This document shows positions 39,339 to 64,000 of a stretch of 64,000 nucleotides of DNA, one piece after another. The position numbers and the translations under genes were made by a program. Below the pieces are notes generated by a model. That model had not been told where the DNA came from, searched no databases, and worked only from the letters and a program-made list of their open reading frames with translations. Origin of the DNA: Synergistaceae bacterium (GTDB taxonomy: Bacteria; Synergistota; Synergistia; Synergistales; Aminobacteriaceae). Where the stretch lies: assembly GCA_031272145.1 (NCBI GenBank), contig JAISUL010000005.1, positions 7,098 through 71,097 of the forward strand. Reading direction: 5' to 3'. Position 1 is the first letter of the stretch. Each line of letters begins with the position of its first letter.

Positions 39339-39342
39339 GACA

Positions 39343-44357: not shown

Positions 44358-44389
44358 CCCTCCTTTCTCACAAACTATACCACACACCC

Positions 44390-44782: not shown

Positions 44783-44897
44783 TTTCTTGCATCCCCTCCG
44801 AATTCTTTTCTTACGCAACCGCTTGACACATGGTGTATAGTCTAAGAGACGGGTTCGCGCCCTCAAACGCGAGCATACATGGAAACGGGGGATTTTC

Positions 44898-47737: not shown

Positions 47738-47741
47738 TGTC

Positions 47742-48860: not shown

Positions 48861-49146
48861 CACGCGCGCGTTCGTCGCCGCCGCCGCGTGCCTCGTATTC
48901 CTGTACTCAATGCCGAGCGGTGAGTTCACGTATGGCGATCCTCTGAGCAAGGTCTGCCAGAATGCCGCGCTTCTGGGCTACGACCTGAAGGTGGTGCCTA
49001 CGGAGCCCAGCGCGATTGACGAGTCCTGCGCCCTCGCCGTAACCAAGGGAGGGCGCAGTATCTGCGTCCTTATTTTTGACCGCAGCCTGAAGCTGATGAG
49101 CGTGGAACGCCCCGCTCCGTCCGCAAAAAAAAATAAGAAAAAATAG
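48853..49146 (+). CDS. small secreted protein (hypothetical)
   Basis: 97 aa. Signal-like N-terminus, Lys-rich C-terminus. Overlaps the sigma gene stop by 8 nt. Confidence 0.4.
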
Positions 49147-49166
49147 GAGGCAGTCGCCCTCTCACT

Positions 49167-50345: not shown

Positions 50346-50346
50346 G

Positions 50347-50374
50347 AGGCGCTCGATCAAAGGCGCTCGATCAA
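50347..50374. repeat. perfect 2 x 14-bp tandem duplication (AGGCGCTCGATCAA)
   Basis: 50347-50360 equals 50361-50374. Intergenic, 1 nt after the MFS stop. Confidence 0.95.
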
Positions 50375-50403
50375 AAAAGGGCCTCGCGGGATTCGCGAGG
50401 CCC
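50373..50403 (-). terminator. rho-independent terminator after the ankyrin gene (left island boundary)
   Basis: Hairpin GGGCCTCGCG-GGATT-CGCGAGGCCC with a T-run on the minus strand. Confidence 0.6.
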
Positions 50404-50429
50404 TGCCCCTACTGACTCAGCGACGCGCG

Positions 50430-51395: not shown

Positions 51396-51437
51396 GGGGG
51401 GCGTTGGGCGGAGTGCGAAAATGCCCCCATGAACCCC

Positions 51438-51466
51438 TTGACAACTGGGCTCCGAAGTGGTATACT
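51438..51466 (+). promoter_or_regulatory. strong sigma70 promoter P1 (extended -10)
   Basis: TTGACA (51438-51443), 17-nt spacer ending in TGG, TATACT (51461-51466). Part of the repeat element 51343-51488. Confidence 0.65.
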
Positions 51467-51543
51467 TAGTATACCTAGTTCAGGAGGCAATACGTTGAGC
51501 GTCAGATTATTGGAAGGCAGCTATAGTTAGGAGGCGGTTTGCG

Positions 51544-51828
51544 ATGGCGGTTAGGGTTCACATTGTTACACCTGAGGAAGAGGCTAAGGAGGAGCGGGCG
51601 AAGACGATAGGTCTTTTGAACTTCACCATCTGCCTCGACATTATTGCTTTTGTTGTCGTTTATTTAGAGTCCGTCCAGAGTGGCGTCTGGTATTGGCAAG
51701 TGTTTATCTGGACGGTGACTATCGGCGCCGGGGTTGTGCTAGCCAGCTTGAGCAAGGTATTTCGTACCATACTGGCCTATGCTTTCGTTCTTTGGGCGGG
51801 GTGGCTCACCCTTACTGGAGGCATGTAA
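51544..51828 (+). CDS. small membrane protein
   Basis: 94 aa. AGGAGG SD 8 nt upstream. 3 hydrophobic helices. Downstream of P1. Confidence 0.55.
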   Translation: MAVRVHIVTPEEEAKEERAKTIGLLNFTICLDIIAFVVVYLESVQSGVWYWQVFIWTVTIGAGVVLASLSKVFRTILAYAFVLWAGWLTLTGGM

Positions 51829-51838
51829 TATACCGTCG

Positions 51839-51875
51839 AAAAAAGGCCTCGCGGGTACTCCGCCCCGCGAGGCCT
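51839..51875 (-). terminator. rho-independent terminator (minus strand; hairpin shared with the + gene)
   Basis: AGGCCTCGCGGG-8 nt-CCCGCGAGGCCT, with an A-run on plus that is a T-run on minus. Confidence 0.6.
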
Positions 51876-51920
51876 TCATAATTAAATCCCGACATATCCT
51901 AACCGTTCTTTTCGATAATC

Positions 51921-52781
51921 CTATCCCTTGAGGGCGTCGATCAGGGCGGATAGCACTGGAATATTGCTGTGCTTGGCGGCGTACATCAGGGGCGTCCAGC
52001 CGTCGCTGTTCTTCGCCCCGGCGTCCGCTCCGGCGTCGAGCAGGGCGAGGATCACGGGGGCGTTGTCGTCCATGGCGGCACACAGCAAGGCCGTCCAGCC
52101 GGCATTGTTCTCCGCGTTGACGTCGGCTCCGGCGTTGAGCAGAGCGGCGATCACGGGGATGTTGTTGTACTTAACGGCGTACAGCAGGGCCGTACAGCCG
52201 GCATTGTCCGCCGCGTTGACGTCGGCCCCAGCGTTGAGCAGGGCGGCGATCACGGGGGTGTTGTCGTCCCTTGCGGCGTACAACAACGCCGTCTGGCCGG
52301 CATTGTCCTTCGCGTTCACGTTTGCCCCGGCGTTTAGCAGGACGGAGATCACCTCAGGGCTGCTGTCGTACCGCACGGCGCACAACAACGCCGTCCAGCC
52401 TAGTAAATTGCCCCTCGCGTTGACGTCTGCCCCGGCGTCTAGCAGAACGGAGATCACCGGGGCGTTGTTGTGCTTGGCGGCGCACAACAGGGCAGCCATG
52501 CCGGCAGCGTCCTTCGCGTTCACGTCGGCTCCGGCGTCGACGGCCTCCTGAACCTCCTGTGGGGTGCCGGTTTTGCAGAGCGCGGCGAAATCCTCCGCGC
52601 TCATCCTTCCGGCCTCGGCGCAGCCTTCCCGCTCGTCCTTCGGCTTCGGCGCGGCAGGCTCGCTCGGCGGCGCGTAAATCGCCATGCTATCCTGTAAGAT
52701 GCGATCCAGCTTCGCCTCTAGTTCGGCCTTGAACTCCTTCCACGGGACTGTAAGCATTTGCAGCCTCTCCTTTGTACTCAT
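51921..52781 (-). CDS. ankyrin-repeat protein (cytoplasmic, coiled N-terminus)
   Basis: 286 aa. No signal peptide. About 6 ANK repeats after an EDFAALCKTGTPQEVQEAVDAGADVNAKD cap. Confidence 0.85.
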   Translation of the reverse strand: MSTKERLQMLTVPWKEFKAELEAKLDRILQDSMAIYAPPSEPAAPKPKDEREGCAEAGRMSAEDFAALCKTGTPQEVQEAVDAGADVNAKDAAGMAALLCAAKHNNAPVISVLLDAGADVNARGNLLGWTALLCAVRYDSSPEVISVLLNAGANVNAKDNAGQTALLYAARDDNTPVIAALLNAGADVNAADNAGCTALLYAVKYNNIPVIAALLNAGADVNAENNAGWTALLCAAMDDNAPVILALLDAGADAGAKNSDGWTPLMYAAKHSNIPVLSALIDALKG

Positions 52782-53611
52782 CGAGTCGCCGCCCTCAGCG
52801 CGGCGAGGGCGGCGGTATTCTCCAATGCCTTGTTACGGACGGCGTAGTCCAGGGCTTTGTTGCCGCCGGCGTCCTTTGCGTTGGCGTCGGCCCCGGGCCT
52901 GAACAGGTCGGCCTTGAACAGCAGGGCGGAGACCGCGTCGGGGCCGTTATGCGCGGCGGCAAGCATCAAAGCCGTGACGCCGCCCTCGCCCCTTGCCTCG
53001 ACATCTGCCCCGCCTCTGATAAGGGCGGAGAGCACGTCGGGGTTGCCGTTGTGCTGCGCGGCGAGCATCAATGCCGTAAAGCCGTCCTTGTTTTTCGCCT
53101 CGGCGTCTGCCCCGCGCCTGAGCAGGATGAAGGGCACGTCAGGGTCGCCGTTGAACTGCGCGGCCAACATTAAAGCCTTAACGCCGTCCTTGTTCTCCGC
53201 GTTCACATATGCCCCGGCGTCTATGGCCTCCTGAACCTCCTGAGGCGTTCCGGTTGCGCACGTCTCTAGGAAGTTCTTCGCTTTGCCGGTCTTAAAAATC
53301 TTCTCCAGCGCGGCGAAGTCGTCGGTGCTAGTTAAAACTCCGTCGATCAATGCTGACAGCACGTCGGAGTTGTCGTTATGCTCGGAGGCTAGCATCAAAG
53401 CCGTCCAGCCGTCCTTGTCCTCCGCGTTCACCTTGGCCCCTGCGTTGAGAAGGACTGAGATCACGTCCGCGCTGCCGTTGAAGGCGGCGGCGTACATCAG
53501 CGGCGTCCTGCCGCTCTCCTTGTCACGCGCGTTGACGTCGGCTCCGGCATAGATGGCATCCTGAACCTCCTGAGGCGTTCCGGCTCTGCACAGCGCGGCG
53601 AAATCCTCCAC
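52778..53611 (-). CDS. ankyrin-repeat protein (cytoplasmic)
   Basis: 277 aa with a GTG start. Two cap-plus-repeat blocks. 4-nt overlap with the downstream ANK gene. Confidence 0.85.
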   Translation of the reverse strand: MEDFAALCRAGTPQEVQDAIYAGADVNARDKESGRTPLMYAAAFNGSADVISVLLNAGAKVNAEDKDGWTALMLASEHNDNSDVLSALIDGVLTSTDDFAALEKIFKTGKAKNFLETCATGTPQEVQEAIDAGAYVNAENKDGVKALMLAAQFNGDPDVPFILLRRGADAEAKNKDGFTALMLAAQHNGNPDVLSALIRGGADVEARGEGGVTALMLAAAHNGPDAVSALLFKADLFRPGADANAKDAGGNKALDYAVRNKALENTAALAALRAATR

Positions 53612-53636
53612 GTCTTACGGCCTCCTATAACTGCCC

Positions 53637-54341
53637 CTACTCCCGCTGGCCGCGGCGTTTCGCGTTGTTGCGGATGTCGTCGAGGTCGGAGGACTCGATG
53701 ACGCCAGTCCTGCGAAACTTCCTCATGGTCTTGTCCATCGTCTTGAAGTTCGCGTCTACGCCGTCGCGGTCGGCCATCCAGTTGGCCGTTCTGTCCGCGC
53801 CTATGCCGACGCGGCGAGCGGTGCGCACGGCGTCGATGTTGGCACCGAGGAAGATAAACTCCCAGCCCGCCGCCTTCTGACGCTCGATCATCGCCTTGAC
53901 CTGCTCAGCGGAGTACTCGCGGCTGCTGTTTTCCTCGCCGTCCGTGATGATGACGAACATCACTTTCTCAGCGCGCTCGCCTTCCTCCGTTTGCGACTGG
54001 GTGTTGCTGACCTTGTTGATCGTCATCCCAATCGCATCAAGAAGCGCGGTGTTGCCTCCCGCCTGATACTCCTGTTCCGTGATCGGGCGGACTGACCCGA
54101 TGGGAACGCTGTCGTGGAGCAGCGTGTAGTTTGTGTCGAACAAAACCGTCGTGACGCGGCACTCGCCGTCGGACGCGTCGGGGGTGAATATCCCCTCGGA
54201 GGTGATTATCATGTCAGGCGGCACCGTCTCTCGCTGCTGGGCAAGCATTGAGTTGTAGCCTCCGATGGTGTCGGACTCCAAGCCGCTCATGGAGCCGCTT
54301 TTGTCGAGAATGAACACCAGTTCCGTTAAACCTTTTTTCAT
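53637..54341 (-). CDS. vWA domain protein
   Basis: ATG 54341 follows a GGGGGG SD; 234 aa. MIDAS DKSGSMS, GNTALLD and ITDGEENSS. First gene of the vWA-ANK-ANK operon. Confidence 0.85.
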   Translation of the reverse strand: MKKGLTELVFILDKSGSMSGLESDTIGGYNSMLAQQRETVPPDMIITSEGIFTPDASDGECRVTTVLFDTNYTLLHDSVPIGSVRPITEQEYQAGGNTALLDAIGMTINKVSNTQSQTEEGERAEKVMFVIITDGEENSSREYSAEQVKAMIERQKAAGWEFIFLGANIDAVRTARRVGIGADRTANWMADRDGVDANFKTMDKTMRKFRRTGVIESSDLDDIRNNAKRRGQRE

Positions 54342-54460
54342 AGTGAAACCCCCCATATAAAAGCCAAAGTAAAGTCCACCGGCGCAGACCGCCGTACCCA
54401 AGAACACCGCACAAATCCCTGCCGAAACAACCCGCGCAAAATCTACATACTAACCCCTCC
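54342..54460 (-). pseudogene. decayed ankyrin-type RBS, start and signal-peptide remnant upstream of the vWA gene
   Basis: Minus strand reads AGGAGGGGTTAGT ATG TAG ATT TTG CGC GGG ... and aligns with AGGAGGGGTTAGT ATG GTG AGT TTG CGC AGG of the copy at 55277. Stop at codon 2. Confidence 0.55.
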
Positions 54461-54590
54461 TATTCGGGGAAGGGGTTGCCAATCCCAAGCAGACCACTCA
54501 TCCCTCATATCGAATTATATCACACCGAACACAAAAAATCAAGTGGAACATGAGGGGCGGAGGTGCGAAAATATGACCCCCATGACCCCC

Positions 54591-54619
54591 TTGACAACTG
54601 GGTTCCGAAGTGGTATACT
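54591..54619 (+). promoter_or_regulatory. strong sigma70 promoter P2 (extended -10), paralog of P1
   Basis: TTGACA (54591-54596), 17-nt spacer ending in TGG, TATACT (54614-54619). Part of the repeat element 54490-54643. Confidence 0.65.
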
Positions 54620-54694
54620 TAAGTTACGCCACGTTCAGGAGGCGGTGCTGGCGTCCGTGGCGGCCAACGTTTGTTTAGAGAGGATGTGTTAGTT

Positions 54695-54910
54695 ATGTTG
54701 ACGGTGTCCCGTGAGGAGTTCGAGGCTGAGGAAGCGCGGATTAAGGACTTGGAGAAAATCTCGCCTATGTTTGCGCATGACTTGTGGAACCAGTACGTTG
54801 AGTTGGTGACCGTGCCTAACCCGCCGGAGCTTGACGCCAAGATCAGGCGATACATTAGGCGCCAGCTTTTTCCGGGGAGGCAGCTGATGTTGGAATGGCC
54901 AACATCTTGA
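54695..54910 (+). CDS. small hypothetical protein downstream of P2
   Basis: 71 aa from ATG 54695 (GAGAGGA upstream). Soluble, charged. No homology recognised. Confidence 0.35.
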   Translation: MLTVSREEFEAEEARIKDLEKISPMFAHDLWNQYVELVTVPNPPELDAKIRRYIRRQLFPGRQLMLEWPTS

Positions 54911-55055
54911 GCAATATTGCACCGCCGGCCACTTGCATGGACGCGTTTATCTGCCCGAATACGAACCGCGGCAGGAGGCGCTGCGGCACGGGAGTATAGG
55001 GGAAGTGAATCCCATGAAGATGATAAAGCAGCAGCCCCCGCGCCGCGTGCGAAGT

Positions 55056-55277
55056 AGGGTTGCTGCTGTATCTGGCAGCGTACATCAAGGCTGTCCAGCC
55101 GTCGTCCTTGTCCTTCGCCTTGACGTCGGCCCCGGCCTCAATAGCCGCCCTGACCTCCTCTGGGGTGCCACCAGCGCACAACTTCAAAAACGCCTCGTTA
55201 TCGTAGGCGCCGTACGCAACCGTCCCCAAGAACACCACGCAAACCCCCGCCAAAACCAGCCTGCGCAAACTCACCAT
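55056..55277 (-). pseudogene. truncated ankyrin-repeat gene (signal peptide + first repeat only)
   Basis: MVSLRRLVLAGVCVVFLGTVAYGAYDNEAFLKLCAGGTPEEVRAAIEAGADVKAKDKDDGWTALMYAARYSSNP. ANK similarity then stops, and the rest of track ORF 54855..55277 is unrelated. Confidence 0.6.
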
Positions 55278-55354
55278 ACTAACCCCTCCTAAATACTCGG
55301 GGAAGGCGCTCTCCGCACCCTCCCCGGCCCGTGGCGTCCGTGGACTGCGTTCCC

Positions 55355-57250
55355 CTACGCCGGTATGCTAGTCTCGTCCTTGAACTCCGGTATGCTAGCC
55401 TCGCCCTTGAGGAACCTCGTGATCAGGCCTATGAACTCTCGATCGCGATCGTAGACGTCCTCCTTGCGCCATTCGTGGATGACCTCGCCGTTGATCGTCT
55501 GCATATACCGCGTATCCTGCTCGGCCAAGTCCCACACGTCGGCTATCTTGGAGGGGTCGACCCCGGGTAGAGGTTTTTTGGGGGCCTTGGCGTAGTAGTT
55601 AGCCCGTTTAAACTCGAACGCGCCATTAGAAGCCTTGGTGTTCAGAGGTGCCTCGATAACCACCTTGTTTCCAAAAAGCTCCATGCACGCATTGGCATCC
55701 GCATCAGTCCAGTATTGAGAGTAGGCCTGTCTCCACTTCTTGGGGAGGATGTGCTCGATCGAGAACGGTCGCAGCTGCTCTTCCTGCTCCTTGTTGAGAT
55801 ATGCATGGAGAAGCAGGAAGACCTTGTCGAGCTTTGAACTCGGCGCGCTGCACTGCCTGAGCGCCTCGTCCGTCGGAATCTTTGGAGCGAAGATCGTGTT
55901 GAGCACCTCAGCCGTCGGATTCTTAGGAGCGTCAGGGCCGCCTACTAAATCGGCGCACTTCTTGACGAGCTCACCCCTAAGACTCACGCCGTGCTTCTCG
56001 AGGTACGCACAGCACATGAAGGCCAGCAGCTTCTCCAAAAAGAGGCAAAACTGCTCGTCGGAATAGCTGGTGCGCATATAGTTTATGAAAAACACGCTCA
56101 CTGCGTACCGCCATATTTCGACGGGGTAACAAGAAAAGCAGTGGAGGTATTTCCGAGCCCGGCGCGAAATGGAGTAGCCCTCAGCTTCGTCAGGGTCACT
56201 GCCGTAGACGTGTCCCCAGAACTTGGCCAGCGCCATAATGTTGTCCATAAGGTCAGGCTCTCGCAGATGCTCGTAGTTTTTGTCCGTGTAAAATGGACGC
56301 AAACCAGGAACAGTGGTATCCCTGTAGTTTGCACGAGCAAGAAGGACGTACATGTAATAGCGGAATATGTCGTTGATCGTGAAATCGTCGGGGTTGGACA
56401 CCGCATCTTTACACTTCGCGGAGAGTCGCTTCCATTGCTCAATGAAGTCCTTCTCGCGCCCCTCGGTTTTCTTAAAACCGTACAAATACGCCTTGAAGAC
56501 ATCGGAGTCTGTCAGAGGCTGCCCTCGATCGCTCATCCGGCTGAAGATCGTCAATGCCATATCTGTTGATGGACACTCGACGGGCAAGACGATGCATCGC
56601 CGCAGAAGCAAGCCGCAAAGCTTGTCCCAGTTCGGCTCGCTCTCGGCAAGTTTGTCGCAGCGCTCTCGGAAACGAAGGTAGTTCTTCGAGTAATTGTCCG
56701 TAGGTTTCGCGTCCTTAGCGTTAGCGTTTTGATCCGCCTCGCCGGTGCTGCCGGTGCTAAGTATGTTCACGAATATCTTCCAGTGGTCGTCAGCCACGGC
56801 ACGTGACTCGATGCGCACCCTGCTTGAATCGAGAACCTTCCCCGAATCAGGGTCAGTATGCCAAATACATGCCGCCATATCCCGCAGCAGTTGAGCAACG
56901 GCCGCTTTTGCGTCAGGGTTAAGCTGAGCATCCTCCAGCTTCTTGTAAAACATCCGAAGCATAAGGAGAAGCGACGTTATCCTTTGCTGACCATCAACGA
57001 TCTCCCAGACGCCCCTGCCGGGTTCGCGTTCGCTGACTACGCGTTCGCTGACTACGATAGTGCCGAGAAAATACTCATCATTTTCTCCAGCCTGTCGCCA
57101 GAACTCGACGATGTCATCCCAAAGCTGATCGCACGCGTCAGTATCCCAGGCGTACTCACGCTGGTACTCCGGAATGACGAATTGGCGCTCTCCCAAGAAA
57201 ACGCCAACTTTTTCCTTGAGCACAACAAGTGCTTTCACTGGCCCACTCAT
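55355..57250 (-). CDS. DUF262 + DUF1524 protein (GmrSD-type, putative type IV restriction / modified-DNA nuclease)
   Basis: ATG 57250; 631 aa. N-terminal DUF262 signature FVIPEYQREYAWD and DGQQR. C-terminal His-Me-like IEHILPKKW...LNTKASN. Visibly more AT-rich than the flanks. Confidence 0.85.
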   Translation of the reverse strand: MSGPVKALVVLKEKVGVFLGERQFVIPEYQREYAWDTDACDQLWDDIVEFWRQAGENDEYFLGTIVVSERVVSEREPGRGVWEIVDGQQRITSLLLMLRMFYKKLEDAQLNPDAKAAVAQLLRDMAACIWHTDPDSGKVLDSSRVRIESRAVADDHWKIFVNILSTGSTGEADQNANAKDAKPTDNYSKNYLRFRERCDKLAESEPNWDKLCGLLLRRCIVLPVECPSTDMALTIFSRMSDRGQPLTDSDVFKAYLYGFKKTEGREKDFIEQWKRLSAKCKDAVSNPDDFTINDIFRYYMYVLLARANYRDTTVPGLRPFYTDKNYEHLREPDLMDNIMALAKFWGHVYGSDPDEAEGYSISRRARKYLHCFSCYPVEIWRYAVSVFFINYMRTSYSDEQFCLFLEKLLAFMCCAYLEKHGVSLRGELVKKCADLVGGPDAPKNPTAEVLNTIFAPKIPTDEALRQCSAPSSKLDKVFLLLHAYLNKEQEEQLRPFSIEHILPKKWRQAYSQYWTDADANACMELFGNKVVIEAPLNTKASNGAFEFKRANYYAKAPKKPLPGVDPSKIADVWDLAEQDTRYMQTINGEVIHEWRKEDVYDRDREFIGLITRFLKGEASIPEFKDETSIPA

Positions 57251-57295
57251 AACTATACCCCTTTCCGGGTAATGGCCGAGAATTTGCAGATGATC

Positions 57296-57317
57296 CACAA
57301 GGTCTATTATAAGACAC
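57296..57317. repeat. third copy (19/22) of the 22-bp repeat, within the P4 leader
   Basis: CACAAGGTCTATTATAAGACAC versus CACAAGGTACATTATGAGACAC at 61766. Confidence 0.85.
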
Positions 57318-57350
57318 CGTCCCGGCCACCCCAATTTACTGACGTCAAAG

Positions 57351-57379
57351 ATTATACACCCAATCCGTAAAAAACGCAA
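57351..57379 (-). promoter_or_regulatory. sigma70 promoter P4 driving the DUF262/DUF1524 gene
   Basis: Minus strand: TTGCGT (57379-57374), 17-nt spacer, TATAAT (57356-57351). The leader AAATTGGGGTGGCCGGGACG (57337-57318) is identical to 62075-62094. Confidence 0.6.
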
Positions 57380-57539
57380 CCCCTTCCGTCGAGTTTCGAG
57401 CTTGCTTTTTCGGTCTGTCCCAACGGCGCGGGCAGTGACCCCTCCCCTACTCCTGAGGTATCTATCCCGTAGGTCGGCATGCTACCAAGCATACCTCGAT
57501 CCTGTCTGGCGCAACGTCTATATCCATGCATCAAAACAG

Positions 57540-59390
57540 CTAAAAATTTTTCACCACGTTCCAGTCCGCCACTGCCTGGGCGAGTGCTTTTGCAGCATCC
57601 ACGCCTTTGGGCGTCAAAGCGTCACGCGCTAACATAATTTCCTGTCGACAGCGCGTGACGGCTGAGAAGTAGGTACGCAGCTGGTTTTCTATACCTGCCT
57701 TGTAAGACAGGTATTTAGCGCGTATTTCATCTACGTCCTTCTGGCTAACCGTAGGTGCCTGGCTTTGTCTAAATCCCTCTGCGCACTTCTCGCGCCACAC
57801 CATCAGCCGTTTCGTTCGTACTGGCCCAAAGCCGCGTATCGCGCGAATCTTGTCCTCGGATACGTCCGCTGCCGTCGTGACACCGTGAGAGTAGAGAGTA
57901 GCCCTCAGTGAGCCGGTACTAGTGCCATAACTGCCCTTAAGGTACTCCTTATTAACGGCATCATCTAGCGAAAACGCCCTCAGAAACTTTTCTAGCTGCG
58001 CTCTTGAATCCGTACTGAGCGCGTTAATCTCGCGTTGCTCCTGCTGCATAAGTTCCACGTATTTGCCATGGAGTTTGTCTGCGGCCTCGCGAATATCCAG
58101 AAACCTACGCCGAGATGCCGTCTGATCCCACTGTGCCTTAAGGCCATCGTAGTGCTTTTGCGCGTCCTTGAGAGCTAGCTCGCGGCGTCTACGCACGGTG
58201 GCAACACCTACCCTAGGGCACGGTGTTGGGGTAACGCTGATCCTTTGCCAGTCGGGGAAATCAGCGCTCGGCGGCACCGGTACGGCCTTAATCTTAGCCC
58301 ATATCTCATCAACGCCGACATCGGGGCTGGTGGGTTGTTCGGTTGTGTTCGGCGGAAACATAAGTACACCTTGGCGCTCCAAAGCACACCACGGACACTC
58401 AGCGGCGCCCTTGGGGTAGACGTGCGACCTCCACACGTCACATTCCTTTAGCCCGTCGCAAAGGTCTTTCAGCGCGTGGTACCACTCCAGAGCGGTCGGA
58501 CGGCATTTCACTCCGTCTTCGGTAAACGCCCGCTCGAACATTGCCACCATATTTGACGGCAGCATAGATACTGGAATAGTCCCTTTGGGCGGTGCTATGC
58601 CACGAGACCTAGCATCTCTAGCATAAGCGTAACGGAACTCTTTTATCTTCTCTTCAAGCAGTTCCCCGATGCCAGCTCTCAAAGTGACACCAGCGTACGG
58701 ATGCCGTCCACAGAACAGCAAGTGAAATATGAGTATGGCAAGCCCAAAGTTATCGTGATTTTGGGTTCGTGTAATGTTGCTAAAAGATTTGCCCTGAAGC
58801 TCAGGCGGCGTGAAATTACCGACGCCGACTTCGCACAGATGCCATACGCCGTTGACCTTGATCTGAAAGGAATCGGCGTCGATGAGAACCACCTTGTCGT
58901 CGTACAATGCCTTTTGGTTATTCCAAGCTAAAGCATTGCCTTCGTTGACGTCGCCTATCACGTGTGCATTCTTGTGCATACCATAAAACGCGCCGGCCGT
59001 GCTCAGCGCGACGCGAAGCAAAAAACTCCACTTCGCGCCGGGCCTTGCTGCCATACGATCGCGAGGATTGTAAAGTTTGTGAAGAGGCGTGAGATTCCCG
59101 AAATTGGGCATCAAGAATCCCACGATGGGACCGCCGCGCCTTTCGCACAGCGTAGCAGTCGGCCACGCCGAAACCTCGCTAAGCTCTTTATTCGCGTGGG
59201 TCGCCATGAAATTCAACTTAGCTTGTTTGGCCGCGTTTGGCAACCGATTGGGGTGATAGATCTTAGCCACCATGCCACGGTGAGCTGGAACTGCTCCGAC
59301 CCAACCCTCTCCGCCAACACCTATTGGCTTGTCATCGATCTCAACCTGTGCACCGGCCGAGGTATAATAAAGTTTAAGCACCACAAGCAC
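57540..59390 (-). CDS. Ser/Thr protein kinase-like protein with C-terminal helix-hairpin-helix (TerY-P kinase)
   Basis: 616 aa. Kinase-like GVGGEG...VAKIY, catalytic HVIGDVNEGN, LIDADSF. C-terminal HhH IRAIRGFGPVRTKRL. Start codon (GTG region) uncertain. Confidence 0.8.
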   Translation of the reverse strand: MLVVLKLYYTSAGAQVEIDDKPIGVGGEGWVGAVPAHRGMVAKIYHPNRLPNAAKQAKLNFMATHANKELSEVSAWPTATLCERRGGPIVGFLMPNFGNLTPLHKLYNPRDRMAARPGAKWSFLLRVALSTAGAFYGMHKNAHVIGDVNEGNALAWNNQKALYDDKVVLIDADSFQIKVNGVWHLCEVGVGNFTPPELQGKSFSNITRTQNHDNFGLAILIFHLLFCGRHPYAGVTLRAGIGELLEEKIKEFRYAYARDARSRGIAPPKGTIPVSMLPSNMVAMFERAFTEDGVKCRPTALEWYHALKDLCDGLKECDVWRSHVYPKGAAECPWCALERQGVLMFPPNTTEQPTSPDVGVDEIWAKIKAVPVPPSADFPDWQRISVTPTPCPRVGVATVRRRRELALKDAQKHYDGLKAQWDQTASRRRFLDIREAADKLHGKYVELMQQEQREINALSTDSRAQLEKFLRAFSLDDAVNKEYLKGSYGTSTGSLRATLYSHGVTTAADVSEDKIRAIRGFGPVRTKRLMVWREKCAEGFRQSQAPTVSQKDVDEIRAKYLSYKAGIENQLRTYFSAVTRCRQEIMLARDALTPKGVDAAKALAQAVADWNVVKNF

Positions 59391-59409
59391 CTCCGAAATT
59401 CAATGCCAA

Positions 59410-60192
59410 CTACGCCATGCGGCACGCTAGAGCCAGCGTCTTGTCGTCGTCCGTACGACTATTGACGTTATCGCAGTCCAAGAAGTCAAGCAAGTCCGTA
59501 TAAAGCTCCCGCTCTCTTCCATGCTGTTTAGCCAACAGCATGTCAAAAAGCCGCCTAAAAAAGGGTTGATGCGGTAGCGGCGGTGCGTTCCTAAAATCCA
59601 GAGCCAGCCTTTCTAGACCGTCAGTGAACATCGCGACGTGGAGAGGCTTACGATGCTCAAAGACCCTGGTCCGCAATATGCCAAGCGCGTTATCGTCTGT
59701 GACGAAGTGTGTACTGTTGGCGTACTCACCATGCATAGGCGGAATGGCGAGCTGCAGCCCTAACCCGTTATCTACCTCGAACACAATGGCACCATCTCCG
59801 ATCTGCATGAACAATGCCACGTTCATGTAGCAAACGGCACCGAGAAACGTGGTCGCGAAGTCCTTATGCCGTAGGCCAAGATCATCAGCTTGTCGGAAGA
59901 TTCGAGCGCGAACCTCATTGACGCAGTCGAACGCTACGCTCTCCCAATCTTCGAGCAAAGCGAAACCTTCCTCTGCGCGCCTCTTGATAAACAGATTGGC
60001 AGTGTGCACAGCCCGCTCGGCGCCATCTGCACCCCGCGCTGCGCTACCAGCGCCGTCAGCTACGAACATGGACAATACTGGCCATCCGGAGGCTGCTACT
60101 CGCTCTCGAACGCAGTAACAGTCTTCGCAAGGTTTATTAACGTGCTTATGCGACACCCCCACGGATGACGCAGCAACTGTCGCCCACGTCAT
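59410..60192 (-). CDS. PP2C-family protein phosphatase (TerY-P phosphatase)
   Basis: ATG 60192 overlaps the upstream stop (ATGA); 260 aa. VADGAGSA, QIGDG and MFTDGL motifs. Confidence 0.75.
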   Translation of the reverse strand: MTWATVAASSVGVSHKHVNKPCEDCYCVRERVAASGWPVLSMFVADGAGSAARGADGAERAVHTANLFIKRRAEEGFALLEDWESVAFDCVNEVRARIFRQADDLGLRHKDFATTFLGAVCYMNVALFMQIGDGAIVFEVDNGLGLQLAIPPMHGEYANSTHFVTDDNALGILRTRVFEHRKPLHVAMFTDGLERLALDFRNAPPLPHQPFFRRLFDMLLAKQHGRERELYTDLLDFLDCDNVNSRTDDDKTLALACRMA

Positions 60193-60854
60193 CTCACGAT
60201 GCAGTCCTTGGGCGAAGGCGGCAAAACATCCGCGCCGGGCGTCGACGTCGAGGCACCCACCGAATTCCCAAGCCACTTGAACAATTCCTGGAATTTCAAT
60301 CCATCCAGCTTCAGCGGCTCTCGGATGCTGATCTGTTGTAATATATCCATGTTAGCGTCCATGACCCCAACAGCATAAAAAATGAACGCTTTCGCGTCTT
60401 CCCCTGTTTTTACTAAATCAGAGACAGAATACCAGTCGTCTGTGGGTTCGCCGTCGGTGACGAGGAATATCCACGGGCGGTAGTACGCGATACCGTTCTT
60501 CCTGTATATCCCCTTGCGTTCCTTCACGAGTCGGATCGCCTCGCTAATGGCCTCGCCCATCGGCGTGAGACCGCCAGCGGTTAGTATCGGAGGCTCAAAC
60601 CGCTCAGCTTCAGTGAACGGCATTTTGAGCACCACCGCTTCTCCAAACGTCACGATAGCCACCTCGACCCGCTTCATAGCGACAGGGTAGTCGACAAGAG
60701 CATCTTTGAACGTCGTCAATCCAGCGTTCAGCTCGTCGATAGGCTGGCCGACCATGGACTCTGAAACGTCGAGAAGCAGAACGCAAGGACACCTAGGTTC
60801 AGGGTTCCCGGCGAAATCGTCATCGGATGCAATCGTGCTCGCCCTTCGTGTCAT
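60189..60854 (-). CDS. TerY/YegL-type vWA protein, copy 2
   Basis: 221 aa. [25 protein letters not shown] and VTDGEPTD. Confidence 0.85.
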
Positions 60855-61525
60855 ACCGTTGCCCAGCCCTTAGGAGAAGATAGTTGGACATCTGTCCCTG
60901 GAGTCGAGCTCGACACGCTCCGCAGCGACGCCGAGAGCCACCGAAACAGCTCTTGAAACTTCAGCCCCTCCAACATAAGCGGCTCGCGCACGCTGATCTG
61001 CCGCAAGACCTCCATGTCGGCACCCTTAACAGCGATGGCAAAGAAGCTGAACTCCTTCCTCTCCTCTCCAGCTTGCACGGCATCAGGGACAGAGTCCCAT
61101 GCGTCGTTGGGCTCGCCGTCGGTTATGAGGAATATCCACGGGCGGTAGTACGCGATACCGTTCTCTTTATATATCTCCTTGCGTTCCTTCACGAGTCGGA
61201 TCGCCTCACCGATGGCAGCACCCATCGGCGTAAGACCGTTGGCGGTCAGACTCGGCGGCTCGAAGCCATCGGCATCGGTGAATGGCATCGCGAGCGTCAC
61301 CGCCCCCCCAAACGTCACTATGGCAACCTCGACCCGCTTCCTAGCGAGAGCATCGGCAGCGATTTCCTCTTTGAACGTAACCAACCCAGCGTTCAGCTCA
61401 CCGATAGGCTGGCCTGCCATTGAACCTGAAACATCAAGAAGTAGAACGCATGGACATCTCGGCTCAGGGTTGGAAGCAAATATATCATCGCTCGCCAGAG
61501 TCTCGAGCTGTTCGTCCATAGCCAT
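60851..61525 (-). CDS. TerY/YegL-type vWA protein, copy 1
   Basis: ATG 61525 follows a GGAGGTG SD; 224 aa. [25 protein letters not shown] and ITDGEPND. Confidence 0.85.
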
Positions 61526-61765
61526 TTCCGCACCTCCATACACGATACGCTAGTTTTCAGAACTAGCACAAAACCATAGGTGACTAAAGCACCATCGCCA
61601 GACCTCCGCACATGCACTATGTCGAGCCCCCACTCTAGCTCGCCGCGAAACTGACGTTGCGATGCTCCACTAACCCTAAGTGCCCTTGGGGCGGGGCGCG
61701 GAGGCCCCTGCAGTCCCCTAAACTCCGCGTTGTTCCTTGGAATGGCTTAGGGTCTCACAATGAAC

Positions 61766-61787
61766 CACAAGGTACATTATGAGACAC
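61766..61787. repeat. 22-bp inverted repeat, left arm (CACAAGGTACATTATGAGACAC)
   Basis: Exact reverse complement of 62095..62116. Confidence 0.95.
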
Positions 61788-62032
61788 GCCCTAATCCCTA
61801 TGGCCAGCCCCCCAGTTTTGCCAGCTTGAACTTCGCGAGCGAGTAGGGGGAGTCCGGAGGATGGCCGAGGGCAGAGCAAGAGGCAGGTCAGGGGCAGGCC
61901 GGCCTCCCGGAGGGCGCTTCCGAAAAAAAATCCCCGACCCACCCAGGAGTAGGGGAGGGGATAGGGGAGCGCCGTTGGGAGATTGGGGGGGGGTGAATTT
62001 TAGAAAAGTTGAAAGATTGTGTATGAAAGGGG

Positions 62033-62059
62033 TTGCATTTTCCATGAACATGGTATACT
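62033..62059 (+). promoter_or_regulatory. extended -10 promoter P3 inside the repeat-bracketed segment, pointing away from TerY-P
   Basis: TTGCAT (62033-62038), 15-nt spacer ending in TGG, TATACT (62054-62059). Followed by a leader homologous to the P4 leader. Confidence 0.55.
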
Positions 62060-62094
62060 ATACCAGGCATCAGGAAATTGGGGTGGCCGGGACG

Positions 62095-62116
62095 GTGTCT
62101 CATAATGTACCTTGTG
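62095..62116. repeat. 22-bp inverted repeat, right arm
   Basis: GTGTCTCATAATGTACCTTGTG is the reverse complement of 61766..61787. Confidence 0.95.
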
Positions 62117-62230
62117 TACGCTCCACGAAGCTCAAGTCATACCGAGGCTTCCCGCACAGTTTAACATTGCGCTGGTGCCCTGGCTCCCGCAGCTAGGACT
62201 CTTTCCCACTGCCAAGCTGCGCAGCCACAG

Positions 62231-62269
62231 CAAAAATAGCCCCGCGGGGTACTCTACCCCCCGCGAGGC
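62231..62269 (-). terminator. rho-independent terminator after the PPIase gene (right island boundary)
   Basis: Minus strand: GCCTCGCGGGG-GGTAGAGTA-CCCCGCGGGGC (11-bp stem with one G-U pair) followed by TATTTTTG. Confidence 0.65.
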
Positions 62270-62318
62270 CCTGCCTGCGGACTCAGGCTACCGCTGCCCC
62301 CCGTCACGAACCAGCGCT

Positions 62319-63182
62319 CTACGAATCCGCCTTCTTCTCCACCTTGTACCGCTTCTTCAGCTCCTCAAGGACGCTCTGGTACTTCTCGCCCTTCTTCTCG
62401 TTGGTCAGGAACTGGATGATCTGCGCCTTCACGTCCTCATAGGGCGTCAGGGCGGCGGGCTTCTTCTCCTCCAGCTTGATGATGTGCCAGCCAAAGGCGC
62501 TCTTCACCGGCGCGGACACGTCGCCGGGCTTCTCTAGGGCGAAGGCCGCCTCCTCGAACTCCGGCACCATCTGGCCCTTGCCGAAGAAGCCAAGGTCGCC
62601 GCCGTTCGCAGCCGAGCCAGGGTCCTTCGAGTACTCGATGGCCACTGCGTCGAACGACGCGCCGTCCTTGAGCTTGCCCTGCACTTCCTCCACCTCGGCC
62701 TTGGCGTCGTTGTCGCCGCTCAGCAGGATGTGCCGAACCCTGATCTGCTCAGGCGTGGTGAACCTGTCCTTGTGCTCGTCGTAGAACTTCTTCGCATCGG
62801 CGTCCGAAACCTTGACGTCCTTCAGAGCCTCGTCGATGTCGGTCTTCGCCAGAGCCTGAGTGCGGAAGTTCGCCATCAGCTCCTTGAAGCTAGCTGTGTC
62901 GGCCAGCCCGCGCTTCTCCCCGTCCAGAGCGAACAGCCTCACGGCTATGAGCTCGTCGAGGATCGCGGCCCGCCCCTGCTCGTTGTCGTAGACCATGGTG
63001 CCCTGAGGCCCCATCGCGGTTATGACCTTGTCGACGTCGCCGGCTTTGATCTCCTGCCCCTCGACCACGGCCAAGACCTTGTCCGCCGACACAGCCGCCT
63101 CAAGCGGCGAGGCGAGCGCCCCAAGCCCAAGGATCAGAACCAAGGCCACCAAAGACGGAATAAACTTTCTTGTGCTGCCCAT
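62319..63182 (-). CDS. parvulin-type peptidyl-prolyl isomerase (PrsA/SurA-like), secreted
   Basis: Signal/anchor FIPSLVALVLILGLGALA. PpiC domain with RVRHILL and FGWHIIKLEEKK. Start at ATG 63182 (alternatives 63200 and 63227). Confidence 0.8.
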   Translation of the reverse strand: MGSTRKFIPSLVALVLILGLGALASPLEAAVSADKVLAVVEGQEIKAGDVDKVITAMGPQGTMVYDNEQGRAAILDELIAVRLFALDGEKRGLADTASFKELMANFRTQALAKTDIDEALKDVKVSDADAKKFYDEHKDRFTTPEQIRVRHILLSGDNDAKAEVEEVQGKLKDGASFDAVAIEYSKDPGSAANGGDLGFFGKGQMVPEFEEAAFALEKPGDVSAPVKSAFGWHIIKLEEKKPAALTPYEDVKAQIIQFLTNEKKGEKYQSVLEELKKRYKVEKKADS

Positions 63183-63316
63183 ACTCAAACGACCTTTCAT
63201 AAGGCTGAATTGTGAAGCTCGGCGCATTCTATCACAAAGCGCCCGCCTCGAAGAGCGTTTTGCGTTGTATTCCTCACACGAAATAACGTAAAATTTGAGG
63301 ACAAGGGGGTGCTTTC

Positions 63317-64000
63317 ATGCGCGGATATTCGCGTATCGGTATCAGAAATGCTGGCAAAAAAATTTTTATGGCTTTGACTCTGGCCGCGGCGTGCCTTTTC
63401 TCGGCTGCGGCGTGGGCAGCGGACGTCCCGATGAGAGGCGACGACTTCCGAGTCGACCTCAAGGACGACGCGTACGTGGGGGCAGAGGTCACCCTGTTCC
63501 TGTCCGGCTGGCGCACCGAGGAGACCGGCGTCTACTTTGAGTGGTCGATCGAGGGCAACACGAGGTCGATGACGCTGCGCGGGAACGGGGCCGAGTGCCG
63601 CTTCATTCCCTGCGACACGGAGCCCGTCGCCGTGTCGGTCTTGGCTCGGAGCGCGAGCGGGCAGACCTTGGCCGACGCCGCGCTGCTCCTGACCGCCAAG
63701 GAGTTCACCGTTAACATAGTCAAGGTCGAGTCGCCGAAGATAGTCCTTTGGGATTCCGAGGCGAAGAAGGACGTCGAGGTGGACGGCATAGTCATAGGCG
63801 AGCCAGCCGTGTTCGAGGCGAGGCTTACGCCGGCGTACAGGGGCAGGCTGACCTCCAGCTGGAGCACCGACGCTATGACGGCCATCGTGGAGGAGGAAGG
63901 GGTGCGCATCACGGTCGAGCGCGGCGACGTCGGCGACATGGAGCTGGCAGTGTCCCTGGCCGACGACAAGGGGTTCCCACTTGGGCACGCGTCCGGCAGG
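63317..64000 (+). CDS. secreted hypothetical protein (partial; continues beyond window end)
   Basis: ATG 63317 follows an AAGGGGG SD. Own translation MRGYSRIGIRNAGKKIFMALTLAAACLFSAAAWAADVPMRGDDFRVDLKDD... has no stop through 64000. Absent from the track because it is open-ended. Confidence 0.6.
   Translation, partial: MRGYSRIGIRNAGKKIFMALTLAAACLFSAAAWAADVPMRGDDFRVDLKDDAYVGAEVTLFLSGWRTEETGVYFEWSIEGNTRSMTLRGNGAECRFIPCDTEPVAVSVLARSASGQTLADAALLLTAKEFTVNIVKVESPKIVLWDSEAKKDVEVDGIVIGEPAVFEARLTPAYRGRLTSSWSTDAMTAIVEEEGVRITVERGDVGDMELAVSLADDKGFPLGHASGR

What the first reader, a model, noticed from the sequence alone, without database searches (positions are those of the whole stretch)
61766..62116. 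Promoter-bearing 351-bp segment bracketed by perfect 22-bp inverted repeats and pointing away from the TerY-P operon: candidate invertible (phase-variable) promoter
CACAAGGTACATTATGAGACAC (61766-61787) is the exact reverse complement of 62095-62116.

Between the two arms lies an extended -10 promoter (TTGCAT 62033-62038; TGG-TATACT 62051-62059) that reads rightward. There is no gene in that direction. The transcript would run into the terminator and 3' end of the convergent PPIase gene.

A homologous promoter-leader module sits in the opposite orientation in front of the DUF262/DUF1524 gene. On the minus strand it reads TTGCGT-17 nt-TATAAT (57379-57351), then AAATTGGGGTGGCCGGGACG (20/20 identical to 62075-62094), then a 19/22 copy of the repeat (57317-57296), then the gene.

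The sequence just outside the left arm on the TerY side (minus strand GTTCATTGTG...GCCATTCCAAGGAA) resembles what follows the repeat in the DUF262 leader (GATCATCTGC...GCCATTACCCGGAA). I counted about 20/34 identical positions.

Flipping 61788-62094 would therefore rebuild the same layout (promoter, leader, repeat, gene) in front of the vWA/TerY operon. I could not find a convincing promoter for that operon in 61526-61765. The defence operon thus appears switched off by a DNA inversion. The inversion may be an evolutionary scar or a reversible switch; no invertase gene lies in this window.
Basis: partly seen in the sequence, partly recalled or inferred. Interest (0 to 1): 0.8.

Follow-up and report, generated by a model that had tools for sequence, protein, structure and literature searches.

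The report
Candidate invertible promoter beside a defence operon
A 307-bp promoter-bearing DNA segment, bracketed by perfect 22-bp inverted repeats, sits upstream of a vWA/phosphatase/kinase-like (TerY-P-like) defence operon in an uncultured Synergistaceae bacterium. It has been flipped at least once and may still flip in the population, which makes it an ordinary kind of on/off switch in an unusual place.

Summary
The arms 61766-61787 and 62095-62116 are a perfect 22-bp inverted repeat (none expected by chance) and the only such repeat in the window.

A rightward promoter-like site lies between the arms. A paralogous promoter-leader-22-mer module precedes the GmrSD gene.

- **Past inversion.** The GmrSD module is collinear with the inner flank of the right arm plus the outer flank of the left arm (26/49 identical, p<5e-5). 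It therefore matches the flipped arrangement, which implies an inversion with crossover inside the 22-mer.
- **Assembly break at the repeat.** An independent k=31 Logan assembly of run SRR14710912, 100% identical over 9.9 kb, ends one contig exactly 22+8 = k-1 bases from the outer edge of the right arm. That is the signature of a graph branch at the repeat boundary. A positive control in the same assembly obeyed the same rule.

Weaknesses:
- No recombinase gene lies in the 64 kb.
- No reads or close relatives were available.
- The promoter is only a consensus match.
- Another module copy elsewhere in the genome could explain the contig break.

Verdict: a probable site-specific inverton (about 0.6), assembled facing away from the operon. 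It is a new member of a known kind.

The parts
61766..61787 (-). Left arm of the inverted repeat (reads GTGTCTCATAATGTACCTTGTG on the minus strand)
   Evidence: perfect complement of 62095-62116; 0 expected by chance.
62095..62116 (+). Right arm of the inverted repeat (GTGTCTCATAATGTACCTTGTG)
   Evidence: Logan contig L026 ends at 62087, which is this arm plus exactly 8 nt.
61788..62094 (.). 307-bp interior, the putative invertible segment. Its plus strand is G-rich, unlike its neighbours.
   Evidence: GC skew is +0.30 over 61800-62099 but negative in the windows on either side; flipping it restores collinearity with the GmrSD module.
62033..62061 (+). Promoter-like site reading rightward. TTGCAT, then a 15-nt spacer to TGG-TATACT (extended -10), or a 17-nt spacer to TACTAT.
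   Evidence: Sequence. Aligns without gaps to TTGCGT-17-TATAAT of the GmrSD module. The same TGGTATACT -10 follows a perfect TTGACA at 54591-54619. Not called by the consensus scan.
62075..62094 (+). Conserved leader block AAATTGGGGTGGCCGGGACG, 20/20 identical to the GmrSD leader. With the first 6 nt of the arm it forms a 26-nt identical block.
61944..61980 (+). Two perfectly conserved blocks upstream of the promoter (CAGGAGTAGGGGAGGGG and GCGCCGTTGGGA), shared with the GmrSD module. Function unknown.
   Evidence: (pair I11).
61925..61948 (-). Weak hairpin followed by T8 on the minus strand. In the present orientation it lies in the path of any leftward transcription towards the operon.
   Evidence: The fold is no better than shuffles (z about 0), so this is a weak call.
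61750..61765 (+). Outer half-site GGGTCTCACAATGAAC, matching 13 of the first 16 nt of the 22-mer. With the left arm it forms a 38-nt near-palindrome laid out 16-6-16 around CACAAG.
   Evidence: 28 of 38 positions are self-complementary, p about 1e-4. The right arm has no such outer half (6 of 38).
61717..61765 (-). Outer flank on the TerY side, homologous to the 3' part of the GmrSD leader. It contains GCCATTCCAAGGAA.
   Evidence: (family D2): 26/49 identical in register, p<5e-5.
62117..62165 (+). Outer flank on the PPIase side, a weak and degenerate homologue of the TerY-side flank.
   Evidence: 23/49 identical in register, p about 0.0006-0.001.
57540..61525 (-). Operon that the flipped promoter would drive: vWA (60851-61525), vWA (60189-60854), PP2C (59410-60192) and a kinase-like 616-aa protein (57540-59390).
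   Evidence: Pfam hits for VWA, VWA and PP2C_2. The kinase-like protein has no HMM or PDB hit. Its kinase motifs and a CPWC zinc-ribbon-like motif were read by eye.
57296..57455 (-). Paralogous fixed module in front of the GmrSD gene (55355-57250): upstream blocks, TTGCGT-17-TATAAT (57379-57351), leader, and a 19/22 copy of the 22-mer.
   Evidence: Pfam GmrSD_N and GmrSD_C.
62229..62270 (-). Intrinsic terminator of the PPIase gene (12-bp stem followed by a U-run). It insulates the operon from upstream transcription.

Best explanation
The segment 61788-62094 is most likely a site-specific invertible promoter (an inverton).

Proposed mechanism (inferred):
- A recombinase encoded outside this window pairs the two 22-bp sites and exchanges strands within them, flipping the 307-bp interior.
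- In the assembled orientation the promoter reads towards the 3' end of the PPIase gene. The vWA-vWA-PP2C-kinase-like operon then has no recognisable promoter. It is shielded from upstream transcription by the PPIase terminator and possibly by a weak hairpin-T8 inside the segment.
- In the other orientation the promoter, the conserved 26-nt leader block and the 22-mer join the TerY-side flank. This gives the same promoter-leader-repeat-gene layout that drives the neighbouring GmrSD gene, with a 5' leader of about 300 nt.

Shown:
- The repeat itself and the module homology.
- The chimeric homology pattern, which demands at least one inversion with crossover in the 22-mer.
- A contig break at the repeat boundary in an independent assembly.

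Inferred: reversibility, the recombinase, promoter activity and the phenotypic effect.
For: 1. The inverted repeat is perfect, unique and far beyond chance.

2. The homology pattern is chimeric.
- The inner flank of the right arm matches the GmrSD module strongly.
- The outer flank of the left arm matches the 3' part of the GmrSD leader at 26/49, p<5e-5.
- The outer flank of the right arm matches that leader part only at 19/49.
- The flipped sequence aligns to the GmrSD upstream region over 96 nt (score 82). The present sequence aligns over 28 nt (score 36).

3. The arms are 22/22 identical although their outer flanks have decayed to 23/49. The unpaired GmrSD copy has drifted to 19/22. This fits selection for arm-to-arm identity, as expected of recombination sites, better than a shared operator.

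4. An independent assembly breaks at the repeat.
- Logan contig L026 (run SRR14710912) is 100% identical to window 62087-63795. It ends with the 22-mer plus exactly 8 nt, which is 30 nt, or k-1 for Logan's k=31 (PMC12424806).
- Positive control: L028 from the same run starts at 48780, exactly the last shared 30-mer of a known repeat.
- Breaks with no identified cause occur about once per 3 kb (three contigs totalling 9.9 kb). By that rate, which is my estimate, a break at that exact base by chance has a probability of about 3e-4.

5. No promoter is called in 61526-61765. The only weak candidate I found by eye would start transcription inside the Shine-Dalgarno sequence.

6. The left site has a 16-6-16 inverted architecture, like the core site of a tyrosine recombinase.
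Against: - No tyrosine or serine recombinase domain was found in any ORF of the 64 kb. The remaining 38 kb of the contig and the rest of the genome could not be read.
- No read-level evidence and no assembled contig in the other orientation were obtained. Four look-ups of ORFs within or next to the segment found nothing.
- The contig break is equally explained by a further copy of the leader plus 22-mer elsewhere in the genome. A variant at 62086 would also explain it, though only by coincidence.
- Four other contig ends in the same assembly have no identified cause.
- The right arm lacks the outer half-site.
- The promoter is below the consensus-scan threshold.
- Its -10 is palindromic, so a leftward promoter may already exist in the present orientation.
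- No relatives are close enough to compare orientation. Best identities are 70% for vWA, 52% for GmrSD and 63% for PPIase.
Confidence: 0.6

Rival explanations
1. Fossil inversion. The promoter segment was flipped once, by a recombinase since lost or by rare homologous recombination between the 22-bp repeats, and is now fixed. The operon is permanently silenced or expressed by other means, and there is no phase variation.
For: - The chimeric homology pattern proves only that one inversion happened.
- No recombinase lies in the window.
- The right arm lacks an outer half-site.
- The 102-kb source contig and the Logan contig both show the same orientation next to the right arm.
Against: - The arms are 22/22 identical while their flanks have decayed to about 47%. 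This argues for continued constraint or homogenisation.
- The Logan contig ends exactly at k-1 from the outer edge of the repeat. That needs a second context for the repeat in the sample.
- By general knowledge, 22 bp is short for RecA-dependent recombination.
Confidence: 0.2
2. Not a switch. The 22-mer, the 26-nt leader block and the downstream GYCATWCC motif are parts of a repeated promoter/5'-UTR cassette, acting as an operator or a structured leader RNA. The rightward promoter constitutively makes an antisense or small RNA. The left copy is a degenerate leader, and the operon uses an unrecognised promoter or the leftward extended -10.
For: - The 26-nt leader block is perfectly conserved between modules that are otherwise about 75% alike.
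- The left site is a near-palindrome, as operators often are.
- In the flipped leader the motif GCCAUUCCAA pairs with UUGGGGUGGC around an 11-bp hairpin (z = -2.3).
- The -10 region is a palindrome that gives TGGTATAGT on the minus strand.
Against: - This reading does not explain why the GmrSD module is collinear with two non-adjacent pieces that become adjacent only after inversion.
- The GmrSD leader folds no better than shuffles, and so does the present rightward transcript.
- There is no Rfam match.
- An operator shared by both modules should not be 22/22 between the arms yet 19/22 in the GmrSD copy.
Confidence: 0.13
3. Mobile-element remnant. The 22-mers are terminal repeats of a MITE-like element, or end structures or cassette sites of the horizontally acquired GmrSD/TerY-P island, dispersed through the genome.
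For: - The island genes have GC3 of 0.58-0.66 against mostly 0.8-0.9 in neighbouring genes, and the segment sits at the island's right edge.
- The TerY-P operon is bracketed by inverted, outward-facing copies of the module spanning roughly 170 bp (pairs I1 and I11).
- The Logan break could reflect another copy elsewhere.
Against: - There is no target-site duplication (flanks ...ATGAAC and TACGCT...).
- Homology to the GmrSD module continues beyond the outer end of the 22-mer. A terminal repeat should not do this.
- No further copies occur in the 64 kb.
- Exact-pattern scans of species-representative genomes, JGI metagenome contigs and viral contigs gave only chance hits.
- BLAST against plasmids and phages found nothing.
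Confidence: 0.05

Closest known systems
E. coli fimS switch (FimB/FimE tyrosine recombinases)
   Same: A promoter-bearing segment of about 300 bp, bracketed by short inverted repeats, that turns an adjacent operon on or off by inversion. The recombinase-binding half-sites around the repeats are dissimilar, as they are here at the right arm.
   Different: The fim repeats are 9 bp and the recombinase genes lie next to the switch. Here the repeats are 22 bp, no recombinase lies within 62 kb to the left or 2 kb to the right, and the target is a defence-type operon. This comparison rests on my knowledge of the fim system, not on a test here.
Bacteroides invertible promoters (Mpi and Tsr recombinases; 'invertons' found by PhaseFinder-type scans)
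   Same: Promoters sit between inverted repeats. A recombinase encoded elsewhere can act on several loci that share repeat and promoter sequence. Phase variation of such loci changes phage susceptibility (PMC13139388).
   Different: The phylum is different (Synergistota). Only one repeat pair is seen here, plus one unpaired paralogous module. There is no sequence similarity to those repeats that I can point to, and inversion has not been shown at read level.
Clostridioides difficile RecV switches (cwpV, flgB)
   Same: A short invertible element with inverted repeats of about 21 bp lies in the leader of an operon, and the recombinase is encoded at a distant locus. In cwpV the off orientation places a terminator in the leader. 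Here a weak hairpin-T8 faces the operon in the present orientation.
   Different: Those switches lie downstream of a fixed promoter, whereas this segment carries the promoter itself. The terminator call here is weak. This comparison is from my own knowledge.
TerY-P triad (Anantharaman et al. 2012; Gao et al. 2020; described in PMC11090510)
   Same: A TerY-like vWA protein, a PP2C phosphatase and a kinase-like protein with a C-terminal zinc-ribbon-like motif, next to a GmrSD type IV restriction gene in a compositionally foreign island.
   Different: The vWA gene is duplicated. The kinase-like protein matches no Pfam, NCBIfam, PADLOC or PDB sequence model. None of the four proteins matches any PADLOC model. 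A defence role is not shown.

Membership tests
Invertible promoter switch (inverton) | Short segment bracketed by inverted repeats | tested here: met
   Perfect 22-bp arms 307 bp apart, 0 expected by chance, unique in the window.
Invertible promoter switch (inverton) | Outward-reading promoter inside the segment | tested here: inconclusive
   TGG-TATACT extended -10 with TTGCAT 15 nt upstream. It aligns to the GmrSD promoter, and the same -10 follows a perfect -35 at 54591-54619. It is below the scan threshold, and there are no transcript data.
Invertible promoter switch (inverton) | Both orientations occur (in a population or among strains) | tested here: inconclusive
   Past inversion is inferred from the chimeric homology. 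The Logan k=31 contig ends at repeat + 8 = k-1, and a positive control obeys the same rule. No contig or read in the other orientation was obtained.
Invertible promoter switch (inverton) | A site-specific recombinase that acts on the repeats | tested here: not met
   No recombinase domain was found in any ORF of the 64-kb window.
Invertible promoter switch (inverton) | The adjacent gene depends on the switch (no promoter of its own) | tested here: inconclusive
   No promoter is called in 61526-61765, and the PPIase gene has a strong terminator. A leftward extended -10 exists in the palindromic -10 region.
MITE / terminal-inverted-repeat element | Target-site duplication flanking the terminal repeats | tested here: not met
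   The flanks ...ATGAAC and TACGCT... share no direct repeat.
MITE / terminal-inverted-repeat element | Homology among copies ends at the terminal repeat, and copies are dispersed | tested here: not met
   Homology to the GmrSD module runs 49 nt beyond the outer end. There are no other copies in the window or in the collections scanned. The genome itself was not available.
Tyrosine-recombinase core site (two inverted binding elements around a 6-8 bp overlap) | Inverted half-sites flanking a short asymmetric spacer at both partner sites | tested here: inconclusive
   The left site fits: 16-6-16 with 13/16 matches around CACAAG, and 28/38 positions self-complementary, p about 1e-4. The right site has only the inner half (6/38).
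TerY-P triad | TerY-like vWA protein plus PP2C phosphatase | tested here: met
   Pfam VWA (7.6e-11 and 6.5e-10) and PP2C_2 (3e-38).
TerY-P triad | Ser/Thr kinase fused to a zinc ribbon or OB fold | tested here: inconclusive
   No Pfam, NCBIfam, PADLOC or PDB hit. The single-sequence AlphaFold model is unusable (pLDDT 36). Kinase-like motifs (GVGGEG, VAKIY, HVIGDVNEGN, DADSF) and CPWC were read by eye only.

The most novel reading that the evidence does not exclude
The three 22-mer sites in the island are recognition sites of one trans-acting recombinase that rearranges promoter-carrying defence cassettes. The sites are the GmrSD copy at 57296-57317, the left arm and the right arm.

- Recombination between the left and right arms flips the promoter.
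- The GmrSD copy and the left arm are direct repeats 4470 bp apart. Recombination between them could excise the whole TerY-P operon as a circle.
- Recombination between the GmrSD copy and the right arm could invert the whole operon.

This would be a cassette-shuffling system for defence genes in which each cassette carries the promoter for its neighbour.
Probability: 0.08. Interest if true: 0.7.

Novelty: new member of a known kind. Interest (0 to 1): 0.42.

Why it matters
If confirmed, this would be a phase-variable promoter in Synergistota, controlling a TerY-P-type vWA/phosphatase/kinase-like operon beside a GmrSD restriction gene. I know of no described inverton in that phylum, though I ran no literature search on this point.

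It would add a defence operon of poorly understood function to the loci that bacteria switch stochastically. Bet-hedging against autoimmunity or fitness cost is a plausible reason.

It would also give a handle on an unknown recombinase and its 22-bp site.

There is a methodological point too. A past inversion could be inferred here from a single assembly, because a paralogous module preserves the ancestral layout. The position of a k-mer assembly break relative to a short repeat can also flag heterogeneity without access to reads.

Tried and rejected
Searches for related sequences that gave nothing useful:
- **Genome scan.** The 19-mer leader pattern against species-representative genomes gave 12 loci, all chance hits in GC-rich genomes.
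- **Metagenome scan.** The degenerate 22-mer against JGI metagenome contigs gave 9 unrelated loci, and the source contig is not in that collection.
- **Viral scans.** Two scans gave no hit or only chance hits.
- **BLAST.** blastn against plasmids and phages found nothing.
- **Protein homologue searches.** All three found no relative close enough to compare orientation.

Look-ups of encoding contigs:
- Source-contig proteins and the nearest GmrSD relative are not on record.
- ORFs inside the segment are not on record.

RNA readings:
- Rfam gave nothing at gathering scores. At relaxed thresholds it gave only sub-threshold matches such as sX13 at 22 of 50 bits. I reject a known RNA family.
- A C-rich minus-strand small RNA ending at the T8 run has no structural support (z = +0.9).

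Other points:
- **Weak own promoter.** The candidate TTGTGC-18-TATCGT (61571-61542, minus strand) would start transcription inside the Shine-Dalgarno sequence, so I reject it.
- **Coding potential.** Small ORFs in the segment (86, 71 and 111 aa) have no family hit (only the 86-aa ORF was scanned) and are not conserved in the GmrSD module, so I treat them as non-coding.
- **Structure.** Prediction for the kinase-like protein failed (pLDDT 36), so I ran no fold search.
- **Inner-flank homology.** The gapped similarity between the left arm's inner flank and the leader (AAACTGGGGGGCTGG against AAATTGGGGTGGCCGG) is only marginal (p 0.05-0.09). I do not rely on it.
Full report
**Source and setting**

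The window comes from a 102,179-bp contig of an uncultured Synergistaceae bacterium. NCBI proteins MDR1740337.1 (GmrSD), MDR1740341.1 (vWA) and MDR1740342.1 (PPIase) are encoded on it.

All genes around the finding lie on the minus strand:
- a peptidyl-prolyl isomerase (PPIase), 62319-63227
- vWA, 60851-61525 (GGAGG Shine-Dalgarno sequence, ATG at 61525)
- a second vWA, 60189-60854
- PP2C phosphatase, 59410-60192
- a 616-aa kinase-like protein, 57540-59390
- GmrSD (DUF262/DUF1524), 55355-57250

The five genes from GmrSD to vWA have GC3 of 0.58-0.66. The PPIase gene has 0.86, and most other neighbours lie between 0.8 and 0.9. They therefore form a horizontally acquired island, and the finding sits at its right edge.

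The lineage is isolated. The best non-self identities are 70% for vWA, 52% for GmrSD and 63% for PPIase. Orientation could not be compared among relatives.

**The observation**

The 22-mer at 61766-61787 is the exact reverse complement of 62095-62116, with 307 nt between the arms.
- No match is expected by chance.
- Among inverted pairs up to 3 kb apart, it is the only perfect one of 16 nt or more in 64 kb.
- It cannot be extended by one base in either direction.

A 19/22 copy precedes GmrSD at 57296-57317. The 20-mer AAATTGGGGTGGCCGGGACG lies just upstream of both this copy and the right arm, and is identical in both places. The two modules align without gaps at 77% over 90 nt. Further upstream they share two perfect blocks of 17 and 12 nt.

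The promoter claim needs a correction.
- TTGCAT and TATACT are 15 nt apart, not 17.
- TACTAT at 62056-62061 is the hexamer homologous in position to the GmrSD TATAAT, with a 17-nt spacer.
- The simple consensus scan calls neither promoter, because both -35 hexamers match at only 3 of 6 positions.
- In favour of the promoter, TGGTATACT is an extended -10. The same nonamer follows a perfect TTGACA at 54591-54619 in this genome.
- The -10 region is a palindrome (62051-62065), so an extended -10 (TGGTATAGT) also faces left.

**Evidence that an inversion happened**

I oriented all three copies as GTGTCT... and compared the flanks in register.

Downstream of the 22-mer, over 49 nt:

| Comparison | Identical | p |
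|---|---|---|
| GmrSD leader vs TerY-side flank of the left arm | 26/49 | <5e-5 |
| TerY-side flank vs PPIase-side flank | 23/49 | about 0.0006-0.001 |
| GmrSD leader vs PPIase-side flank | 19/49 | about 0.02 |

Upstream of the 22-mer, the GmrSD module matches the inner flank of the right arm strongly. Its match to the inner flank of the left arm is at best marginal.

The GmrSD module is therefore collinear with two pieces that are not adjacent now. They become adjacent if 61788-62094 is flipped.
- A local alignment of the GmrSD upstream region scores 82 over 96 nt against the flipped sequence.
- Against the present sequence it scores 36 over 28 nt.

This chimeric pattern is what an inversion with crossover inside the 22-mer leaves behind.

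The arms are 22/22 identical, yet their outer flanks share only about 47%. The unpaired GmrSD copy has drifted to 19/22. This points to a constraint on arm-to-arm identity, as expected for partner recombination sites. It fits less well with a binding site that all copies share.

**Anatomy of the sites**

The first 16 nt of the 22-mer (GTGTCTCATAATGTAC) occur four times: in the GmrSD copy (13/16), in both arms, and at 61750-61765 just outside the left arm in the opposite orientation (13/16).

The left site is thus a 38-nt near-palindrome of two 16-nt elements around CACAAG.
- 28 of 38 positions are self-complementary, p about 1e-4.
- This is the layout of a tyrosine-recombinase core site.
- An operator or an RNA hairpin would have the same layout.
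- The right arm has the same spacer in inverted orientation but no outer element (6/38).

I treat the core-site reading as a lead, not a result.

**Evidence from an independent assembly**

A Logan assembly of run SRR14710912 holds the same strain. Three contigs are 100% identical to the window:
- L026 = 62087-63795
- L027 = 57378-60405
- L028 = 48780-53902

Logan contigs come from a k=31 de Bruijn graph in which k-mers seen only once are dropped and every 31-mer is distinct (PMC12424806).

L026 ends with CACAAGGTACATTATGAGACAC followed by CGTCCCGG. That is the right arm plus exactly 8 interior bases, 30 nt in all, which equals k-1.

In such a graph, a contig ends with the last (k-1)-mer that two contexts share.
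- Here that would mean the interior end plus the arm occurs with two different continuations beyond 62116.
- A mixture of orientations predicts exactly this.
- In a single fixed orientation this 30-mer is unique, and no break is expected.

I checked the rule with a control chosen before the look-up. The window has a 36-nt repeat at 47621-47656 and 48774-48809. L028 starts at 48780, the last shared 30-mer, as predicted.

Cautions:
- Four of the six contig ends seen (57378, 60405, 63795, 53902) have no identified cause. Unexplained breaks therefore occur about once per 3 kb, and a chance break at that exact base has a probability of roughly 3e-4 by my estimate.
- A variant at 62086 would give the same end, though only by coincidence.
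- A further copy of the leader plus 22-mer elsewhere in the genome would give the same end for a systematic reason.
- I could not fetch the neighbouring contigs. Look-ups work only through exact proteins, and the small ORFs of the segment are not on record.

**What the switch would do**

In the assembled state:
- The promoter faces the 3' end of the PPIase gene.
- The PPIase terminator is strong on the minus strand. By eye, the same hairpin has no U-run after it on the plus strand, so the rightward transcript would probably run antisense into the PPIase gene.
- The operon has a 240-nt untranslated region upstream of its start codon in which no promoter is called.
- A weak hairpin with T8 (61948-61925, minus strand) stands between the segment's right part and the operon.

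Flipped:
- The promoter, the 26-nt leader block and the 22-mer join the TerY-side flank.
- The predicted leader of about 300 nt folds better than shuffles (z = -2.3). An 11-bp hairpin forms from the 22-mer and its outer half-site, enclosed by UUGGGGUGGC paired with GCCAUUCCAA.
- With only two or three sequences, this structure cannot be tested by covariation.

**The recombinase**

Pfam scans of essentially every sizeable ORF in the window found no tyrosine or serine recombinase. The only transposase-named genes are two PD-(D/E)XK (PDDEXK_2) ORFs at 38691-39395 and 43443-44792. The plus-strand gene starting near 63316 encodes a secreted protein.

A distant recombinase is normal for some invertons, such as Mpi and RecV. 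Its absence here still keeps the claim open.

**Alternatives**

- **MITE.** This reading fails. There is no target-site duplication, the homology runs past the repeat, and no dispersed copies were found in the window or in the scanned collections.
- **Known RNA family.** Excluded at Rfam thresholds.
- **Fossil inversion, or an operator/leader cassette without inversion.** Both remain possible, and I score them at 0.2 and 0.13.

**The 'TerY-P' label**

The operon has the vWA and PP2C parts of the triad as defined in PMC11090510.
- The third protein has no HMM or PDB match, and its single-sequence model is unusable.
- I read kinase motifs and a CPWC motif by eye only.
- None of the four proteins matches any PADLOC model.
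- The label is reasonable by architecture, but a defence role is not shown.

**Verdict**

This is a well-formed candidate inverton. There is internal evidence for a past flip and indirect evidence for heterogeneity in a natural sample.

The kind of system is known: fimS, the Bacteroides and C. difficile switches, and phase variation affecting phage susceptibility (PMC13139388). What is new is the host phylum, the controlled operon and the 22-bp site.

Noticed in passing
window 55355-62116: The GmrSD gene and the vWA-vWA-PP2C-kinase-like operon have GC3 of 0.58-0.66, against mostly 0.8-0.9 in neighbouring genes. They form a horizontally acquired island whose right edge is the repeat-bracketed segment. 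The operon itself is bracketed by inverted, outward-facing copies of the promoter module, spanning roughly 170 bp (57296-57455 and 61944-62116).
   Followed up: partly
window 57378 (end of Logan contig L027): The Logan contig covering PP2C and the kinase-like gene ends at 57378, inside the -35 hexamer of the GmrSD promoter. No repeat within the window explains this. It could be a variant, low coverage, or a repeat elsewhere in the genome.
   Followed up: no
window 62051-62065: The -10 region of the segment's promoter is a perfect palindrome (TGGTATACTATACCA). It gives an extended -10 on both strands. The GmrSD module has no such symmetry.
   Followed up: partly
window 46550-48860: Two sigma-70 (RpoD-type) genes lie in tandem at 46550-47737 and 47742-48860. 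They share identical stretches of 95 and 36 nt.
   Followed up: no
window 36845-44792: Two subtilase genes (one of 1275 aa) are each followed by a PD-(D/E)XK 'transposase' (PDDEXK_2) ORF. A 97-nt exact repeat lies at 43292-43388 and 43692-43788.
   Followed up: no
window 28123-29436 and 35161-36381: Other candidate defence genes are present. An AAA_21 ATPase matches PADLOC HEC-01A (3e-177). An AAA_14/DUF4143 ATPase matches PDC-S01 (1e-144).
   Followed up: no
window 54591-54619: A near-consensus promoter, TTGACA-17-TATACT preceded by TGG, lies upstream of a small plus-strand ORF between the ankyrin/vWA cluster and GmrSD. I used it only as a local example of the TGGTATACT -10.
   Followed up: partly
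window 50430-55277: A cluster of ankyrin-repeat genes (three clear, one weak Pfam match) with signal-peptide-like N-termini surrounds a vWA gene (53637-54407). The intergenic sequences 54440-54470 and 55280-55310 look alike (ctaacccctcct...cggggaagg).
   Followed up: no
window 57025-57054: A perfect 15-nt tandem duplication (CGCGTTCGCTGACTA twice) lies inside the GmrSD coding region. It is an in-frame duplication of 5 codons (family D11).
   Followed up: no
window 60271-60570 and 60936-61235: The two vWA genes are 75% identical over 300 nt and share exact 30-mers. This fragments k=31 assemblies and explains why no full-length vWA protein from Logan is on record.
   Followed up: yes
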